Source: a virus
Lineage: Duplodnaviria > Caudoviricetes
Length of the DNA stretch: 64,000 bases
Reading direction: 5' to 3' (one strand)
IMG/VR virus record: IMGVR_UViG_3300028888_000116
Span: 1 to 64,000 of that record
Positions 547-56,896 of the stretch are shown one piece after another. Each line of letters starts with the position of its first letter. Within the stretch, counting starts at the first letter, position 1. The notes below the pieces were generated by a model, which saw only the letters and a program-made list of their open reading frames with translations, was not told the DNA's origin and did no database searches. The translations under genes were made by a program, and so were the position numbers.

Positions 547-1518
547 ATGAAAAATCGAGTTGTAAGATTTATCGTTATTGGTGTAATCGCAATCATTCTT
601 TTGGTTGTTGGTTTGAATTGTTGTTCTTCTGTTGGGCCAACAGAAAGGGGAATTATGACGACTTTTGGTAAGCCTTCCACTGAGATTCTTGAACCTGGTC
701 TCCATTTCAAGAGTCCTATTGGTCAGACTCTCGTGAAGAAAGATTTGTCGCCTATTGAATACTCAAAAACATTCCCTGTTGGAGAAGGCGGAGCTGTATC
801 AAAGGATATGCAGACAATTGGCGTAACCTTTACTTTGTATTGGAGATATTCTCCCGATAGAATTTATGAAATTGTAACCAACTATAAAGATGAACAGAAA
901 ATTTATCAACCAATATCTACTGCTGTAAAAGCTGCTCTAAAGGCGGAAATCGGAAAATACTCAGTTGAAGAGTTGATTCAGAATCAGACTAAAATTACTG
1001 AAGATGTCAGAAGTTCATTTGAAACTGATAAAGATATAGCGAGACTTCCTATTGAAATCCAGTCATTCAAAATTGATAACTGGGATTGGTCAGATGATTA
1101 TGATGCTATGATTAAAAAGACAATGGTTCGAAAGCAGGAAGTAGAACAGATGAAACAGGAAGTTGCTCTTTCTGAACAGGCCGCTCAGAAACAGGTTAAG
1201 GAAGCTGAAGCTGAAAAGCAGAGAATTGAATTGGAAGCAGACGCTGCTCTTATTAAAGCTCAGAAAGAAGCAGATGCAGCAGTTGCCCAGGCTGAAGGTG
1301 AAGCTCAGGCTAAGAAAGTTAAGGCAGAAGCTGAAAAATATGAAGCATTACAGATTCAGCAAGCGGCATCTATGAAGAAATCTCAGTGGGAACACGAAGA
1401 GAGAATGTTGGAATTGGAAGCAAAACTTCAGCACGAGAAAACTTGGAATGGAGCAATGGTTCCAAATTATATCCCAATTACTGCTGCTGGAACAATTGTT
1501 GATATTTCTGGTAATTAA
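547..1518 (+). CDS. SPFH/Band 7/prohibitin-family membrane protein
   Basis: N-terminal TM helix, then VGPTERGIMTTFGK...LEPGLHFKSP, VSKDMQTI, C-terminal Ala/Glu/Lys coiled coil; GGAGG SD. Confidence 0.9.
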   Translation: MKNRVVRFIVIGVIAIILLVVGLNCCSSVGPTERGIMTTFGKPSTEILEPGLHFKSPIGQTLVKKDLSPIEYSKTFPVGEGGAVSKDMQTIGVTFTLYWRYSPDRIYEIVTNYKDEQKIYQPISTAVKAALKAEIGKYSVEELIQNQTKITEDVRSSFETDKDIARLPIEIQSFKIDNWDWSDDYDAMIKKTMVRKQEVEQMKQEVALSEQAAQKQVKEAEAEKQRIELEADAALIKAQKEADAAVAQAEGEAQAKKVKAEAEKYEALQIQQAASMKKSQWEHEERMLELEAKLQHEKTWNGAMVPNYIPITAAGTIVDISGN

Positions 1519-11983: not shown

Positions 11984-12499
11984 ATGAGATTTGATATAAG
12001 TATCTTAAATGAAGAAGAAAGAGATGAAGCATTAAATATTGCTACTGAAATTTCTATGGCAGCGATGGAAATGGATTTTGAAAAAGTAAGGATTCAACTC
12101 GATTCTATTCAAGAGATATTTGACGACCATTATTCTAAAATTGAGAATAAGCTTCGTGCAGAAGAGCATAATAACTTCCTACAACTCATAGAAAAAAATG
12201 AAAATGGTGGACAGGACACTTTAACAATCCCAAAACATAGGGGAAAATTTTATTGGCCGATTTTCAGAAAAGATATTATGAAAGAAACTGAAAAGGCATT
12301 CGGTATTCTTGATTTGGAAGCTACAGAAGAAATGCGACAAGAATCATTGAAGAAATGGAAATCAGAGCCAATTCATTGGTTACCAAAATCAAAAATAATC
12401 GTTTACCAAGGTCTTTATTTCATTCCATCTGATTATTGCCAGATTTCTTATATGGATAAATTTAAAAGTAGCTATATTATAAAAACATTTAATATTTAA
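11984..12499 (+). CDS. hypothetical protein
   Basis: class E promoter and GGAG SD upstream. Confidence 0.7.
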   Translation: MRFDISILNEEERDEALNIATEISMAAMEMDFEKVRIQLDSIQEIFDDHYSKIENKLRAEEHNNFLQLIEKNENGGQDTLTIPKHRGKFYWPIFRKDIMKETEKAFGILDLEATEEMRQESLKKWKSEPIHWLPKSKIIVYQGLYFIPSDYCQISYMDKFKSSYIIKTFNI

Positions 12500-12504
12500 A
12501 AAAT

Positions 12505-12531
12505 AAGGTCGGGTAAATCCCGACCTTTTTT
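12505..12531. terminator. bidirectional terminator (AGGTCGGG/CCCGACCT family)
   Basis: AAGGTCGGG-taaat-CCCGACCTTTTTT between convergent genes. Confidence 0.85.
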
Positions 12532-12532
12532 A

Positions 12533-13342
12533 TTACCAAAATTTAAATATAAAATGTCCACCTTGATAAATCAATTCTAAAGAAATTAAAGAAATCCCAG
12601 CAGAATATAACATTGTAGTTCCAGTTCTAATATCACCTTGAGAAAAAGGAATAATAGAACAAACAGCAACACCAATTGGCGCCAATGGAACTAGGAAATT
12701 TCCTAAAGTATAAAGATTTGAGAATCTTCTGTCTCTCTCATAATCTAATTTCTGATGTTCATTCCATTCAAACTCTAAAAGCTCTTTTTCTTTTTTAATT
12801 ATTTCAACTTCTTCTAGAGCTGCTGAAAATAATTCAATTGCATTCTCAGTATCACCTTTATTACTTAGAAGTGCCTTGTTCGCTAGATTCAGACAATCCG
12901 ATAACTGATTTGATAAATTCTTCATCGAGCTCAGCTCTTCTAATACTGAGGTCGAATAAGTCATTGATAGTTGAGTTTGCCAATTGTAAAGATTCTTGAT
13001 AAGTTTTAGTAATTGAGGCAAGCTCATCGAGTTTGGATTTGTATTGTTTATTAAGTTCTTCAGCTGCTCCGATACTTCTTCTGGCATCTTCGTTATGTCC
13101 GATTGCATTGTTGAGATTATTAATTCCAGTTTCAATTTCAGTTCCTGCTCGGCCTGCTGACTGTCCAATAGTGTCGATTCGTTGCTCAATTCTTCCGCTA
13201 TTTGATTCAGCTCGTTTAAATCTGGTTGCATATCCTGCCCAAAAACCGAGTGAGAAAATGATAAGAATAGTACCAGCGATAATAGAATACTTAATGATTT
13301 TTTTCTTGTCAATTTCCATTGAAAAATTTTTGATTTTAACAT
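12533..13342 (-). CDS. exported coiled-coil protein with C-terminal membrane hairpin (spanin-partner-like), overlapping the next ORF in another frame
   Basis: signal-peptide-like RKKSLSILLSLVLFLSFSHSVFG-Q, Leu/Gln heptads, hydrophobic C-terminus ending FIFKFW. Confidence 0.6.
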   Translation of the reverse strand: MLKSKIFQWKLTRKKSLSILLSLVLFLSFSHSVFGQDMQPDLNELNQIAEELSNESTLLDSQQAEQELKLKLELIISTMQSDITKMPEEVSEQLKNLINNTNPNSMSLPQLLKLIKNLYNWQTQLSMTYSTSVLEELSSMKNLSNQLSDCLNLANKALLSNKGDTENAIELFSAALEEVEIIKKEKELLEFEWNEHQKLDYERDRRFSNLYTLGNFLVPLAPIGVAVCSIIPFSQGDIRTGTTMLYSAGISLISLELIYQGGHFIFKFW

Positions 13343-13346
13343 TCAT
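12861..13346 (-). CDS. i-spanin (Rz)-like membrane-anchored coiled-coil protein
   Basis: KKK then TM IIKYSIIAGTILIIFSLGFWAGY followed by a helical periplasmic domain; AGGGG SD. Confidence 0.6.
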   Translation of the reverse strand: MNVKIKNFSMEIDKKKIIKYSIIAGTILIIFSLGFWAGYATRFKRAESNSGRIEQRIDTIGQSAGRAGTEIETGINNLNNAIGHNEDARRSIGAAEELNKQYKSKLDELASITKTYQESLQLANSTINDLFDLSIRRAELDEEFIKSVIGLSESSEQGTSK

Positions 13347-13387
13347 TTTCGCCCCTTTTTGATATTCATTTAGTCTACTAATTAAAT

Positions 13388-53849: not shown

Positions 53850-56453
53850 ATGGTTTTTGAAATTGGAAAATCTTACAAAATTTGTGATTCACACATAGAT
53901 TATTATGATGATGCTGAAATTATCAATATTGATGATAACTTTATCAAGTTTAATTATAAATCTGATGGTATCAAAAGAATAAAAATTTTGAATAAAAATG
54001 AAATTAAATCCGCCGAAATTTTAAGGAATGGGAATAGTCATACCATTTGGTATTGGGGATTATTTGAAGGCGAATTTTTCAATACACCACGATATGGAAT
54101 TAAAAAGGCTAACCTTTCAGATGATGAAATTATGATGAATATGTCAGACGGAGTTACTATTTTCTCCAAAAAAGAAGATGCCAAAAAATACCTTTTCAAT
54201 ATGATTCTTTTGAAAAAAGTTGAATCAGATTATTATGTTTTTGAAGATGATGATTGTGCATTATATGAATCCTGTGGAAAATGGGAAGGTGCCCTTTCAA
54301 AAGAATTTAATGAGTTTCTGAAAACAAGAACTAATTAAAATAAAGGTCACCAGCCTTTATAGGAGTTAAAATGGAAAAACCAATATCGCCAGAAATTTTT
54401 GAAAAAGTAAAAGATTTTTTAAAAGATAATCCACTCGTAGAAAACGTAAAAATAAGAGATAAAGAGCCTTCAATGATAGAAGTTTGGCTCGTAAAAAATG
54501 AAGATACAGTATCGGGCTATGGTGGAGATACTGGATATAAATTAAGAAAAGAGCTTGATGAGTTTCTTCATAAAGAATTTGATAAAGAAGTCGGAGCATT
54601 TGATTGTCTTTATAATTGGGATGCATATTTAAGTGCTGAAAAGAAATATAAAGAAGAGCATCCCGAACCAAAAGACCCAAGATATGAGTCAGGCTGGAAA
54701 AAACGTTCTTATTATGATAGAACAAAAGGAAAAGGCTCAAAAGAAGTAGAAGCTTATAAAAATGAAAAAATAAAGTGGTTAGCTGATTTTAATAAGGCAA
54801 TGCCACCAAGAGCATTTCCTGGCTTTGCATTTAGAGTAGAGCCAGCAGGAACCGCAGCTAAAATTTTCGCTTTCTATAAAGATACAAAATATTTTGGAGA
54901 TTAATATTGAGAGTATTAGTTAAGTTTAGAAACGGAGTTTCTGATGTTATTACTATTGAAAAAGTAAAAATCTTCTCAAAAAATCCCTGTATTAAATGCC
55001 GGTCTGATGGTGGCTGTTATGGTCATAATTGTTTTGATTCAGAAGAATGGGGTGAATTCATAGATTTAGGAAATGGAAACTCCATAAAAACTGACGATAT
55101 TTCTGATATAAAAATTCTAAGTTTCTAACTTTTTGCTTTCTTTTTATTATATAATAAATATAAGGAGATTTTAATATGGATATTAAGAAAGCAAAATCAG
55201 TTCAGATGGTTACACCAAAATATGGATTTGCAATTTATGATAAAGACTGGAAAGATAATCCTACAGAGCCAGTCGTTCACTTTTTAATCAAAAATATAAG
55301 AAAAGATGGAACTGTCTGGTACCAGCAGACACCTGGTTGGTATGTTTCTACTCTTCTTGAAAAAACACCTCATTGTAAAGACCTTCACGACGAAAATGAA
55401 ATTGGACTCTATATCGACTATGGACAGAATTGGTTTATTCCAGCTGGCCCATATTCAATAATGTGGGATTATCTTGAAGAATATTCAGATAATAATGGAG
55501 CAGAATCAATCTGTTATCACGATTCAAATGTTTTAAACGGAGAAATTTGGTAATGATTTTCTATATTGAGTCAGCAGAGAATACATATCAAGTTTTCAGC
55601 GGAGATTTTTCTTGTGGAACTGATGAAGTTGGCTATCAAAATGGTTTCTTCAATTTGAATGTATTTCGTGGTTCTTCAAAAAATGATACTTTCTATGTAA
55701 AAGGCCACGCATTTGATACTCTGAAGTTTGCGAGAAATGATATTATTTATTTAAAAGAAGCTGGGAAAATTGCAGACCGGCGCATTTATGAAATGATACC
55801 TTTTTGGTATACAAAGTATACGAAGTATGGTGATGAAGAAGAAAGAGAAAAGTTTATAAGGGAGAATTTTAATCTGCCTTTACAATATATTGATTCAATA
55901 GAAGAATCTGAAGCAATAATTAAATCCGTTGTTGAGGTGGTAGGACTTTGGGAAAAAAGGAGTTATTATGGAACTTAGTAAAGAAGAAATCAAACTTTTA
56001 AGTGAAGAAATCGCTAAGAAACTCAATGAGAATATTCAGTTTCAGCCAGCAGATTCTCAGCCTTTGAATACGAAAGAATCATTCCAAAGATTTTTTGATA
56101 AAAGAGAAAAATATCTTTTGAATTTGCCGATTGCTGAAATTGCCTATATGTTCTATCTACAGGGAATTTCTGATGGGCCAAAAATCAAGAACGATATTTC
56201 TATGGAAGAACTAATTTCAGAAATTGAAGCTGATACATTTATTGAATCAGTAAAAGGCTGGATTAGTATGAAAGACAATGGAACAAACCCACTTCCAAAT
56301 AACCCTATCGTAGAGGTTGTAAAAAAGATTATTCCTTGTACAAATTGTCAGAGTTTGTATGATGGATATTGTGATGGCGATGAATGTCTTGAACAGGAAA
56401 AAGTTGAAGAAATTAATCTTGAAAAGCAGATAAAGGAGAACGCTGAATGTTAA
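53850..56453 (+). CDS. six hypothetical ORFs (53850-54338, 54371-54904, 54907-55128, 55176-55553, 55547-55978, 55968-56453)
   Basis: class E promoters at about 53802 and 55128, SD sites, coupled overlaps; no recognisable domains. Confidence 0.6.
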
Positions 56454-56896
56454 CTATTTTAATCGTTACGGGGATTGGAGTTATTATAAATATTACTTGC
56501 TACTTAATTAGCAAAAAGACAAGCGATATAAATTTATTGGTCGCAGTTTGTTGTTTGATTTTATTCTTATGTGCAGCGTTTGGTTCAGTAACTTCTACTG
56601 AACATTTAAAAGCAACAATTGAAGTTGATTCAAAACCTAAATCAATAAAAATTGCTGATATTCGTATTGAGTGTTCTAATTGTGGGAATAAATTATGGGC
56701 TTCAGAAAATAAATATTGTAGTGAATGTGGAAATGAAATTTTAAATAATAATAATTTCACTGCTATCATATATTATTGTCCTTTCTGTAAAGAAATCACT
56801 ACTACCTCAAAAAATTATTGTGAAAATTGTGGACATAATATGATGGAAATTAATTCCCAATTAAAACGAAAAGATGTTAATATTAAAAAGAGGTAA
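56447..56896 (+). CDS. membrane protein with double zinc ribbon
   Basis: two TM helices then CSNCG...YCSECG and YCPFC...YCENCG. Confidence 0.8.
   Translation: MLTILIVTGIGVIINITCYLISKKTSDINLLVAVCCLILFLCAAFGSVTSTEHLKATIEVDSKPKSIKIADIRIECSNCGNKLWASENKYCSECGNEILNNNNFTAIIYYCPFCKEITTTSKNYCENCGHNMMEINSQLKRKDVNIKKR

What the first reader, a model, noticed from the sequence alone, without database searches (positions are those of the whole stretch)
12533..13346. Dual-frame gene pair: about 480 nt encode two membrane-targeted coiled-coil proteins (atypical spanin system)
Seen: two minus-strand ORFs start 4 nt apart (ATGAATG, 13346 and 13342) and overlap for 482 nt in different frames. The same DNA encodes a TM anchor in one frame and a signal-peptide-like segment in the other. 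Both continue as heptad-rich helices, and the longer one ends in a hydrophobic hairpin with a terminal FW. Established: lambda Rz/Rz1 spanins are embedded or overlapping genes, but o-spanins are lipoproteins with a lipobox Cys. There is no Cys after this signal sequence. Inference: a non-lipoprotein two-component spanin anchored by its C-terminus, or a frameshift that fuses the inner-membrane anchor to the C-terminal anchor to give a unimolecular spanin.
Basis: partly seen in the sequence, partly recalled or inferred. Interest (0 to 1): 0.7.

Follow-up and report, generated by a model that had tools for sequence, protein, structure and literature searches.

The report
Two-frame spanin-like membrane gene pair
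About 480 bases of this uncultured giant gut phage are read in two frames, from start codons four bases apart, to make two different envelope-targeted helical proteins that probably work together like the spanins that break the outer membrane at lysis, but without the usual lipid anchor.

Summary
On the minus strand, S (12861..13346, 161 aa) and L (12533..13342, 269 aa) start 4 nt apart (ATGAATG) behind one Shine-Dalgarno site and share 482 nt, with L in the +1 frame of S.

The dual coding is real:
- Seven lineages keep both frames open, down to about 25% L identity.
- About 11-18 stops would be expected in the alternative frame (P<=2e-4 per lineage).
- Substitutions show purifying selection on both frames (S p=4e-5, L p=3e-9).
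- In two distant giant-phage relatives the two genes are adjacent but separate, so these are two proteins, not a frameshift fusion.

S has a basic N-terminus, one membrane helix and a helical exported domain, which is i-spanin-like topology. L belongs to an unannotated family of at least 68 sequence clusters. It has a signal-peptidase-I-type signal with no lipobox, a helical rod, and a conserved C-terminal helical hairpin that ends in W (94%).

In the 92%-complete relative the pair lies beside that genome's only SLT gene, and no canonical spanin pair was found. The spanin-like role is inferred, not shown. The host is unknown.

This scan has already noted similar lipobox-free dual-frame pairs on other DNA. 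I found no published description.

The parts
12861..13346 (-). Gene S (161 aa). Basic N-terminus, one membrane helix, then a roughly 120-aa helical domain predicted to be exported. This is type II, i-spanin-like topology.
   Evidence: ORF listing; hydropathy; 22 homologues of 141-166 aa; alignments A2 and A7; purifying selection on this frame p=4e-5; only weak, non-significant hits to Rz-like PHROGs.
12533..13342 (-). Gene L (269 aa), in the +1 frame of S. Signal peptide, helical rod, conserved C-terminal hairpin domain.
   Evidence: ORF listing; homologues of 260-273 aa; 68 family representatives; selection on this frame p=3e-9; AF2 models.
12861..13342 (-). The 482-nt dual-coding stretch.
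   Evidence: Both frames are open in 7 lineages. Null P(open) is below 5e-5 here. Differences by position class are S1/L3 > S3/L2 > S2/L1, the hybrid order expected for dual coding and unlike the non-overlap part (chi-square p=1.7e-5).
13340..13346 (-). Twin start ATGAATG: S ATG at 13346-13344, L ATG at 13342-13340.
   Evidence: Sequence. Relatives have ATGAATG, ATGTG (L=ATG, S=GTG) or TTGTG (L=TTG, S=GTG), always 2-4 nt apart.
13352..13357 (-). A single Shine-Dalgarno-like AAGGGG, 5 nt before the S start and 9 nt before the L start.
   Evidence: Sequence. Relatives have GGAG or GGAGG at 3-8 nt from the first start.
13368..13374 (-). Status uncertain.
   Evidence: The motif is not enriched window-wide (49 found against 61 expected), so only its position is suggestive.
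13227..13295 (-). Codons for the S membrane helix (about residues 18-40). The same DNA encodes the hydrophobic core of the L signal peptide.
   Evidence: alignments.
13238..13342 (-). L signal peptide (residues 1-35), predicted to be cut after VFG. The family shows small-x-small followed by Q/E/D, and no lipobox.
   Evidence: Alignments A1 and A4. Non-overlapped relatives have ordinary MKK-type signal peptides.
13169..13237 (-). Conserved acidic motif at the mature N-terminus of L (QD..PDLNELNQIAEEL). Candidate contact site for the S C-terminus; this is inference.
   Evidence: Invariant columns P40, L42, E44-N46, I48, E51, L52, E55, T57. DDLE(Y/F)(F/W)NQ.A.EL recurs in distant members.
12536..12895 (-). 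L C-terminal domain (residues 150-269): the AL.SNK.DT motif, a long helix, then a helical hairpin (about 208-268) ending GGH(F/W)IFK.W.
   Evidence: AF2 with a 68-sequence alignment, pLDDT 91. Column statistics: G262 100%, W269 94%, E256 80%, P219 70%. The K/R cluster before the first helix averages 3.5 in 14 residues; the loop is net negative.
12923..12925 (-). Internal Met140 of L, used as a start by gene callers. Probably not a required start.
   Evidence: The ATG is forced by the invariant S-frame ELDEEF (GAT GAA). It is absent in distant members P0037 and P0040. Selection on the L frame upstream of it gives p=3.5e-8.
12505..12527 (.). Bidirectional intrinsic terminator: 9-bp stem, 6 GC pairs, T-runs on both sides. 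It closes the S/L unit and the convergent gene 11984..12499.

Best explanation
S and L are two genuine, co-transcribed genes of a giant phage. The record is 74 kb, estimated 23% complete. They are translated in different frames from twin start codons served by one ribosome-binding site.

Shown by comparative sequence analysis: both frames are maintained and are under purifying selection. The two proteins also exist as separate adjacent genes in distant relatives.

Predicted from sequence: S is anchored in the cytoplasmic membrane by its N-terminal helix and projects a helical rod into the periplasm. L is exported by Sec and cut by signal peptidase I. It is a helical rod with a conserved acidic N-terminal tip and a conserved C-terminal helical hairpin.

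Inferred: the pair is a lipoprotein-independent analogue of a two-component spanin. The hairpin's basic and aromatic flanks lie on the exported side. Its marginal hydrophobicity and conserved Pro/Gly make it a poor stop-transfer signal. I therefore propose that it inserts from the periplasmic side into the inner leaflet of the outer membrane. The N-terminal tip of L would then meet the C-terminal conserved block of S. Once the wall is degraded, the complex would disrupt the outer membrane.

The S:L ratio would be set by competition between the two starts (ATG/ATG, ATG/GTG or TTG/GTG in different lineages).
For: Dual coding:
- Seven lineages keep both frames open.
- Codon-resampling nulls give P(open)<=2e-4 in every lineage.
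- Changes that are non-synonymous in S and synonymous in L: 79 observed against 39 expected. Synonymous in S and non-synonymous in L: 58 against 37. Non-synonymous in both: 52 against 98.
- With kappa=2, matching the observed 61:59 transitions:transversions, p=4e-5 for S and 3e-9 for L. The result holds for L codons 1-139 alone.

Two separate proteins that belong together:
- L015 and L016 encode S-like (136 and 132 aa) and L-like (187 and 181 aa) proteins as adjacent, non-overlapping genes.
- The S of L018 is homologous to the S family (hhalign probability 96.5%).

Spanin-like features:
- S topology, plus recurrent but non-significant hits to six Rz-like PHROGs.
- Overlapped and separated architectures occur within one family, as described for spanins (PMC6139136).
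- In the 218-kb, 92%-complete relative G001, the pair is flanked by that genome's only SLT-domain gene, which has an N-terminal hydrophobic segment, and by a Peptidase_C39_2-like gene.
- G001 has only one strict lipobox ORF, with no type II membrane-protein neighbour, so no canonical spanin pair was seen.
- SLT endolysins with signal peptides, and lysis genes scattered outside cassettes, are documented for Campylobacter phages (PMC7692668).

Hairpin: AF2 pLDDT 91; charge and conservation statistics.
Against: - No significant similarity to any spanin, holin or other family in Pfam, PHROGs, NCBIfam, PADLOC, PDB or the ESM Atlas.
- L has no lipobox, the defining feature of o-spanins.
- In the window the pair lies between tail genes and a fibre-like gene, not beside an endolysin or holin. 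No endolysin was found in the 74-kb fragment, which is only 23% complete.
- In G001 the neighbouring SLT and C39-like genes also lie next to a gp5-like baseplate gene, so they could be virion-associated lysins rather than the endolysin.
- The host is unknown. The only clue is one MAG label, Campylobacter sp., so a two-membrane host is assumed, not shown.
- No established route is known to me for a helical hairpin to reach the outer membrane. It may simply stay in the inner membrane.
- The S-like proteins of L015 and L016 are only marginally similar to S (hhalign probability about 50%).
- Translation of either frame has not been observed.
Confidence: 0.5

Rival explanations
1. Lysis-timing pair rather than outer-membrane disruptor. 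S would be a class-III-like holin (N-in, one membrane helix, periplasmic domain, as in T4 T). L would be a secreted or membrane regulator (antiholin-like), or the roles would be reversed. Together they would control release or activation of a signal-bearing SLT endolysin.
For: S topology also fits class III holins. In G001 the adjacent SLT enzyme has an N-terminal hydrophobic segment and no other obvious holin lies beside it. Signal-peptide endolysins need a holin for activation (PMC7692668). Dual-start and overlapping arrangements are common in holin/antiholin genes (established knowledge).
Against: No holin family hit. The weak hits of S are all to Rz-like spanins, none to holins. Both proteins are long helical rods, unlike the globular periplasmic domains of T4 T and RI. 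No known holin has an exported N-terminal domain of about 170 aa followed by a hairpin.
Confidence: 0.15
2. An envelope function unrelated to lysis. Examples are superinfection exclusion or receptor masking (T5 Llp-like logic, encoded near receptor-binding genes), or remodelling of the host envelope during infection.
For: The window copy lies next to a 710-aa fibre/adhesin-like gene and the tail tube and sheath genes, not next to lysis genes. In G001 it lies near the baseplate. One S homologue gave a weak hit to a Sie-like PHROG (E=0.08).
Against: The pair is conserved down to about 25% identity across giant phages whose neighbouring genes differ. That fits a core function better than a strain-specific accessory one. 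No PADLOC or exclusion family hit of any weight was found. It is adjacent to wall-degrading enzymes in L015 and L016.
Confidence: 0.15
3. A programmed +1 (or -2) frameshift fuses the N-terminal membrane anchor of S to the C-terminal hairpin of L, giving one molecule anchored at both ends.
For: L is in the +1 frame of S over 482 nt, so a shift anywhere would give an in-frame fusion. A-runs occur early in the overlap.
Against: Every overlapped lineage keeps a second start codon for the second frame, in three different forms. The N-terminal signal peptide of L, with its small-x-small site, is conserved and under selection. In L015 and L016 the two proteins are separate genes. No conserved slippery site was identified. 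A fusion is not needed to explain anything observed.
Confidence: 0.03
4. Only one frame is really translated. The other is an open frame kept by composition or by chance.
For: Hydrophobicity in the two frames is mechanically linked (NUN codons become UNN). The antisense strand also carries long open frames here (13033..13362 +, 109 aa), showing that the region is generally poor in stops. No expression data exist.
Against: Nulls give P<=2e-4 per lineage in 7 lineages. Selection acts on both frames. Both proteins exist as stand-alone genes in L015 and L016. The conserved domain of L continues beyond the S stop.
Confidence: 0.03

Closest known systems
Two-component spanins (lambda Rz/Rz1 embedded; P2 LysB/LysC and T5 overlapped; T4 PseT.3/PseT.2 separated). 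Kongari et al. 2018, PMC6139136.
   Same: One partner is a type II inner-membrane protein with a helical periplasmic domain. The second partner is an exported protein encoded in another frame of the same DNA or immediately downstream. One family shows both overlapped and separated architectures. The second gene is in the +1 frame. In a near-complete relative the pair lies beside a murein-degrading enzyme.
   Different: The second partner has no lipobox. It has a signal-peptidase-I-type site and a conserved C-terminal helical hairpin instead, so any anchor would be at the opposite end of the protein. It is long and helical (180-270 aa) rather than short and proline-rich. The geometry of the overlap is reversed: the i-spanin-like gene lies inside the 5' half of its partner, and the two genes start together behind one ribosome-binding site. 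In known embedded cases the o-spanin starts at 0.4-0.5 of the i-spanin length. There is no significant sequence similarity to any spanin family.
Unimolecular spanin (T1 gp11)
   Same: An exported protein with an N-terminal signal and a C-terminal hydrophobic membrane element.
   Different: gp11 has a lipoprotein signal and a single C-terminal membrane helix, is largely beta, and acts alone. L lacks the lipobox, has a two-helix hairpin, is helical, and always comes with S.
Predicted spanins of Campylobacter phages (Fletchervirus F352_090/091, Firehammervirus F379_066/067; PMC7692668)
   Same: A possible host clade (one homologue is labelled as a Campylobacter sp. MAG). Lysis genes are not organised in a cassette. 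The endolysin is an SLT enzyme with a signal peptide.
   Different: Those phages have canonical lipoprotein o-spanins of 92-97 aa. No tblastn match was found between S or L and any phage record in the collection searched.
Same-strand overprinted viral genes and dual-start lysis genes (lambda S105/S107)
   Same: Two products arise from closely spaced starts on one mRNA. Sequence space is shared between two proteins.
   Different: S105 and S107 are in the same frame and differ by two residues. Here the starts are in different frames, and about 160 codons encode two unrelated, both conserved, proteins.

Membership tests
Two-component spanin | i-spanin: type II inner-membrane protein (N-terminal membrane helix, N-in) with a helical or coiled-coil periplasmic domain | tested here: met
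   S has a Lys-rich N-terminus and one hydrophobic segment at residues 17-39 (Kyte-Doolittle 2.0). The rest is hydrophilic. The layout is conserved in 30 homologues.
Two-component spanin | o-spanin: outer-membrane lipoprotein with a lipobox Cys cleaved by signal peptidase II | tested here: not met
   No lipobox appears after the signal in L or in the full-length family members aligned. The site is small-x-small followed by Q/E/D.
Two-component spanin | Genes adjacent on one strand, in embedded, overlapped or separated architecture | tested here: met
   Co-start overlap of 411-482 nt in 7 lineages. Separated by 1-21 nt in L016 and L015.
Two-component spanin | Encoded with holin and endolysin genes, or otherwise linked to lysis | tested here: inconclusive
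   Window: no lysis neighbour, and the fragment is only 23% complete. G001: the pair is next to the only SLT gene and a C39-like peptidase, but also near the baseplate. Neighbours in four other lineages have no family hits.
Two-component spanin | Sequence homology to a described spanin family | tested here: not met
   Best Rz-like PHROG E-values are 0.005-0.2. Nothing in Pfam or NCBIfam.
Two-component spanin | Physical complex of the two subunits spanning the periplasm | not testable with these tools
Two-component spanin | Host with an outer membrane; loss gives spherical, unlysed cells | not testable with these tools
   Host unknown. The only clue is a Campylobacter sp. MAG label on P0007. 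The phage is uncultured.
Unimolecular spanin (T1 gp11 type) | N-terminal lipoprotein signal plus a C-terminal membrane helix in a single protein that acts alone | tested here: not met
   No lipobox. The C-terminus is a two-helix hairpin of marginal hydrophobicity. L is always paired with S.
Holin / antiholin | Small membrane protein of a holin family; membrane lesion formation | tested here: inconclusive
   No holin Pfam or PHROG hit. S topology is compatible with class III. Function is not testable here.
Same-strand overlapping (overprinted) gene pair | Both frames open in diverged relatives beyond what codon usage predicts | tested here: met
Same-strand overlapping (overprinted) gene pair | Purifying selection detectable on each frame independently | tested here: met
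   (four phylogenetically independent close pairs).
Same-strand overlapping (overprinted) gene pair | Both products detected experimentally | not testable with these tools
No proteomic data.

The most novel reading that the evidence does not exclude
L is the outer-membrane subunit of a spanin that needs no lipoprotein pathway. After Sec export and signal-peptidase-I cleavage, its conserved C-terminal helical hairpin (basic and aromatic flanks, ...GGH(W/F)IFK.W-COOH) inserts into the outer membrane from the periplasmic side. Its acidic N-terminal tip docks on the C-terminus of the inner-membrane protein S. The stoichiometry of the two subunits is hard-wired by competition between two start codons in different frames on one ribosome-binding site. 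This module would be the missing outer-membrane-disruption device of a widespread group of uncultured giant gut phages, and possibly of some spanin-less phages.
Probability: 0.33. Interest if true: 0.82.

Novelty: new variant of a known kind. Interest (0 to 1): 0.7.

Why it matters
First, this is one of the longest and best-conserved same-strand dual-coding stretches seen in a tailed phage. About 160 codons encode two structured, conserved proteins, and the two frames initiate together from one ribosome-binding site. Gene callers report only one of the two, or truncate L to its last 88-134 residues, so the family is systematically mis-annotated.

Second, about 13% of phages of Gram-negative hosts had no identifiable spanin in the reference survey (91 of 677, PMC6139136). 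Spanin searches start from the lipobox. A lipobox-free partner with a C-terminal hairpin anchor would be invisible to those searches and could account for some of these cases.

Third, the L family (at least 68 clusters at 50% identity, no Pfam or PHROG model) defines a new conserved membrane-active domain that can be tested directly in E. coli lysis assays.

Tried and rejected
- Known relatives among sequenced phages: tblastn of S, L, the sheath, a distant L and the L016 SLT against 50,697 phage records. Nothing, apart from two unannotated faecal contigs for the SLT.
- IMG/VR scans with single proteins and close alignments found nothing. Only the broad alignments gave L015-L017 and L034-L035.
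- Representative prokaryote genomes: no prophage copy found with two pattern sets. One alignment was too diverse to search.
- Family libraries (Pfam, PHROGs, NCBIfam, PADLOC), PDB sequences, Foldseek against PDB and BFVD, and the ESM Atlas gave only coiled-coil noise.
- My idea that the L C-terminus is a four-strand beta anchor of the trimeric-autotransporter type, or carries a BAM beta-signal, is rejected. AF2 with a deep alignment gives a confident helical hairpin. The residues at -3, -5 and -7 from the C-terminus do not fit the beta-signal pattern.
- The internal Met140 as the true L start is rejected (see parts).
- Endolysin search in the window's record (SLT, Phage_lysozyme, Peptidase_C39_2, and 10 candidate ORFs): none found. 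This is uninformative at 23% completeness.
- Neighbour annotation in four other lineages: no hits.
- Host inference: cluster names gave only one Campylobacter sp. MAG label. Relatives cannot be drawn for a virus record.
Full report
**What is there**

The minus strand of the window carries two ORFs. S is 12861..13346 (161 aa) and L is 12533..13342 (269 aa). Their ATG codons lie in ATGAATG (13346 and 13342), 5 and 9 nt downstream of one AAGGGG Shine-Dalgarno-like site. L is in the +1 frame of S, and the two share 482 nt. That motif is not enriched in the window as a whole (49 found against 61 expected), so I give it little weight.

The record is an IMG/VR virus contig of 74,223 bp with about 30% G+C. 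CheckV estimates it at 23% complete, which implies a phage of roughly 300 kb.

**Is the dual frame real?**

Both proteins have homologues in metagenomes. L has six at 49-76% identity and 260-273 aa. S has 22 at 47-67% identity and 141-166 aa. I fetched DNA for relatives and read both frames in each.

- All five close lineages have both frames open over the full length: the window, the L004/L008/L013/L014 group, L001/L010, L006, and L007/L011/L012.
- So do two far more distant lineages whose L proteins are only about 24-26% identical to the window's. These are L020 and L018, the latter from a 295-kb contig.

The twin start is kept in three different forms, always behind one GGAG-type site:

- ATGAATG, with both starts ATG.
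- ATGTG, with L starting at ATG and S at GTG two bases later.
- TTGTG, with L starting at TTG and S at GTG.

I resampled synonymous codons under the phage's own codon usage.

- If only S were coding, the L frame should contain 7.5-12 stops.
- If only L were coding, the S frame should contain 12-18 stops.
- The probability of an open frame was <=2e-4 in every lineage and below 5e-5 in most.

**Selection on each frame**

I used four phylogenetically independent close pairs. In the overlap, differences rank S1/L3 (91) > S3/L2 (63) > S2/L1 (48). The non-overlapping 3' part of L shows the ordinary L3 (120) > L1 (61) > L2 (25). The two distributions differ (p=1.7e-5). The L third-position rate is halved in the overlap (0.153 against 0.267, p=8e-6). 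The order seen in the overlap is what dual coding predicts. S-only coding would make S3 the most variable class. L-only coding would make L2 the least variable.

Substitutions sort into three classes:

| Class | Observed | Expected if neutral |
|---|---|---|
| Non-synonymous in S, synonymous in L | 79 | 39 |
| Synonymous in S, non-synonymous in L | 58 | 37 |
| Non-synonymous in both | 52 | 98 |

That ATG is forced by the invariant S-frame motif ELDEEF (GAT GAA). It is absent in distant family members.

**Two proteins, not a fusion**

A profile search of 1.84 billion representatives found 68 L-family proteins. Many are gene-caller truncations of 88-134 aa covering only the part downstream of S. 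This shows how annotation pipelines handle the overlap.

Two IMG/VR relatives come from contigs of 132 and 218 kb. They encode an S-like protein (136 and 132 aa, with an N-terminal membrane helix and a helical remainder) followed by a separate, non-overlapping L-like protein. The L-like proteins (187 and 181 aa) have an ordinary MKK-type signal peptide, a helical rod and the same C-terminal domain.

- The signal peptide of L and the membrane helix of S are therefore family traits, not by-products of each other's codons.
- The module exists in both overlapped and separated architectures, as spanin gene pairs do (PMC6139136).
- The S of L018 is clearly homologous to the window's S family (hhalign probability 96.5%). 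The S-like proteins of L015 and L016 are only marginally similar (about 50%).
- The frameshift-fusion idea explains nothing that two independent starts do not.

**The proteins**

S has a basic N-terminus and one membrane helix (about residues 17-39). Its exported part of about 120 aa includes a highly conserved C-terminal block (YQESLQLANSTINDLFDLSIRRAELDEEFI).

L has these features:

- An n-region and h-region followed by a small-x-small site before Q/E/D. No lipobox appears in any aligned member.
- A conserved acidic motif at the predicted mature N-terminus.
- A variable helical middle.
- A conserved AL.SNK.DT motif.
- A C-terminal domain that AF2, given a 68-sequence alignment, models at pLDDT 91. 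A long helix (L162-228) is followed by a tight turn and a second helix (L238-268).

Within that domain G262 is invariant and the last residue is W in 64 of 68 members and F in 4. E256, P219, G229 and G241 are conserved at 70-85%. The 14 residues before the first hydrophobic helix carry 3.5 K/R on average. The loop between the helices is net negative. The tail is basic and aromatic.

L is exported, so the basic flanks lie on the periplasmic side, against the positive-inside rule for an inner-membrane hairpin. The hydrophobicity is marginal (Kyte-Doolittle about 1.6-1.7, below threshold in L016). I read this as a hairpin that is translocated and then inserts into a membrane from the periplasm. 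That is inference. An inner-membrane location cannot be excluded.

My earlier idea of a beta-barrel anchor of the autotransporter type is rejected by the model.

**Function**

No library recognises either protein. S homologues repeatedly touch six different Rz-like spanin PHROGs at E=0.005-0.2. This reflects shared architecture, not demonstrated homology.

Context in the window is uninformative. The pair sits between a divergent 178-aa gene followed by tail tube and sheath genes on one side, and a convergent 171-aa gene followed by a 710-aa fibre-like gene on the other. No endolysin lies in the 23% of the genome that is held.

The best context comes from G001, the 92%-complete 218-kb record behind L016:

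- Its only SLT-domain gene, which has an N-terminal hydrophobic segment, is the divergent neighbour of S-like/L-like.
- A Peptidase_C39_2-like gene follows the pair. The same is true in L015.
- The whole genome has a single strict lipobox ORF (207 aa, acidic low-complexity) with no type II membrane protein beside it, so no canonical spanin pair is visible.
- A gp5-like baseplate gene lies 1.7 kb downstream. The SLT and C39-like genes might therefore be tail lysins, which weakens this argument.

Campylobacter phages are the only hinted host clade (one MAG label). They are reported to have signal-peptide SLT endolysins and scattered lysis genes, but canonical lipoprotein spanins (PMC7692668).

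**Verdict**

Dual coding is established as far as comparative genomics can establish it (about 95%). That S and L act together in the envelope is very likely. That they are a lipoprotein-independent spanin equivalent is the best single hypothesis (about 50%). Rivals are a lysis-timing pair (about 15%) and a non-lysis envelope function (about 15%).

I found no publication describing such a module.

The scan's own notebook lists similar lipobox-free dual-frame pairs on other DNA, with twin starts 2 or 4 nt apart. They are noted in giant gut phages, spirochaete phages and Negativicutes prophages. These are unverified leads. My sequence look-ups found no shared words with them, so I cannot say whether they belong to the same family.

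Noticed in passing
whole record (window 1-64000 and beyond); G001: GATC and CATG are completely absent from the 74-kb record (0 found, about 199 expected each). ACGT, GTAC and TCGA are depleted. The 218-kb relative G001 has 0 GATC and 0 AGCT (about 586 expected each). This is strong restriction-site avoidance, with different site sets in the two phages.
   Followed up: partly
window 13033..13362 (+); L004 3979..4233 (-); L001 302..598 (-): Long antisense ORFs (109, 84 and 98 aa) lie opposite the dual-coding stretch in three lineages. They are probably a by-product of stop-poor composition under double constraint. I did not test them for selection.
   Followed up: no
L015 1709..2479 (-): A class 3 lipase gene (Pfam Lipase_3, E=1.6e-13) lies about 700 bp upstream of the S-like/L-like/C39-like block in the 132-kb relative. 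A lipolytic enzyme near a putative lysis module recalls mycobacteriophage LysB.
   Followed up: no
L015 4158..4844 (+); L016 4332..4994 (+): A Peptidase_C39_2-like protein (220-228 aa) immediately follows the L-like gene in both separated-architecture relatives. It may be the wall-degrading enzyme of the module or a tail lysin.
   Followed up: partly
protein P0034 (145 aa, metagenomic): A family member in which an unrelated N-terminal membrane helix (MRKQKKK..., hydrophobic stretch) is joined directly to the last ~98 residues of L (profile 164-262). It may be a natural short variant or an assembly chimera.
   Followed up: no
contig of P0007 (Logan SRR31077499, 12.8 kb; no DNA available): A flagellin gene (Flagellin_N and Flagellin_C) lies about 4 kb upstream of the L homologue on a phage-like contig. 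The same protein is labelled as a Campylobacter sp. MAG at NCBI.
   Followed up: no
window 547..1518 (+): An SPFH/Band 7 protein with an N-terminal membrane helix (Pfam E=2e-23; PHROG 200, named lipoprotein), encoded by the phage.
   Followed up: no
window 56447..56896 (+): A 149-aa protein with two N-terminal membrane helices followed by a double zinc ribbon. It is a holin-sized membrane protein of unknown role.
   Followed up: no
Any case for it must rest on its position relative to start codons.
   Followed up: partly
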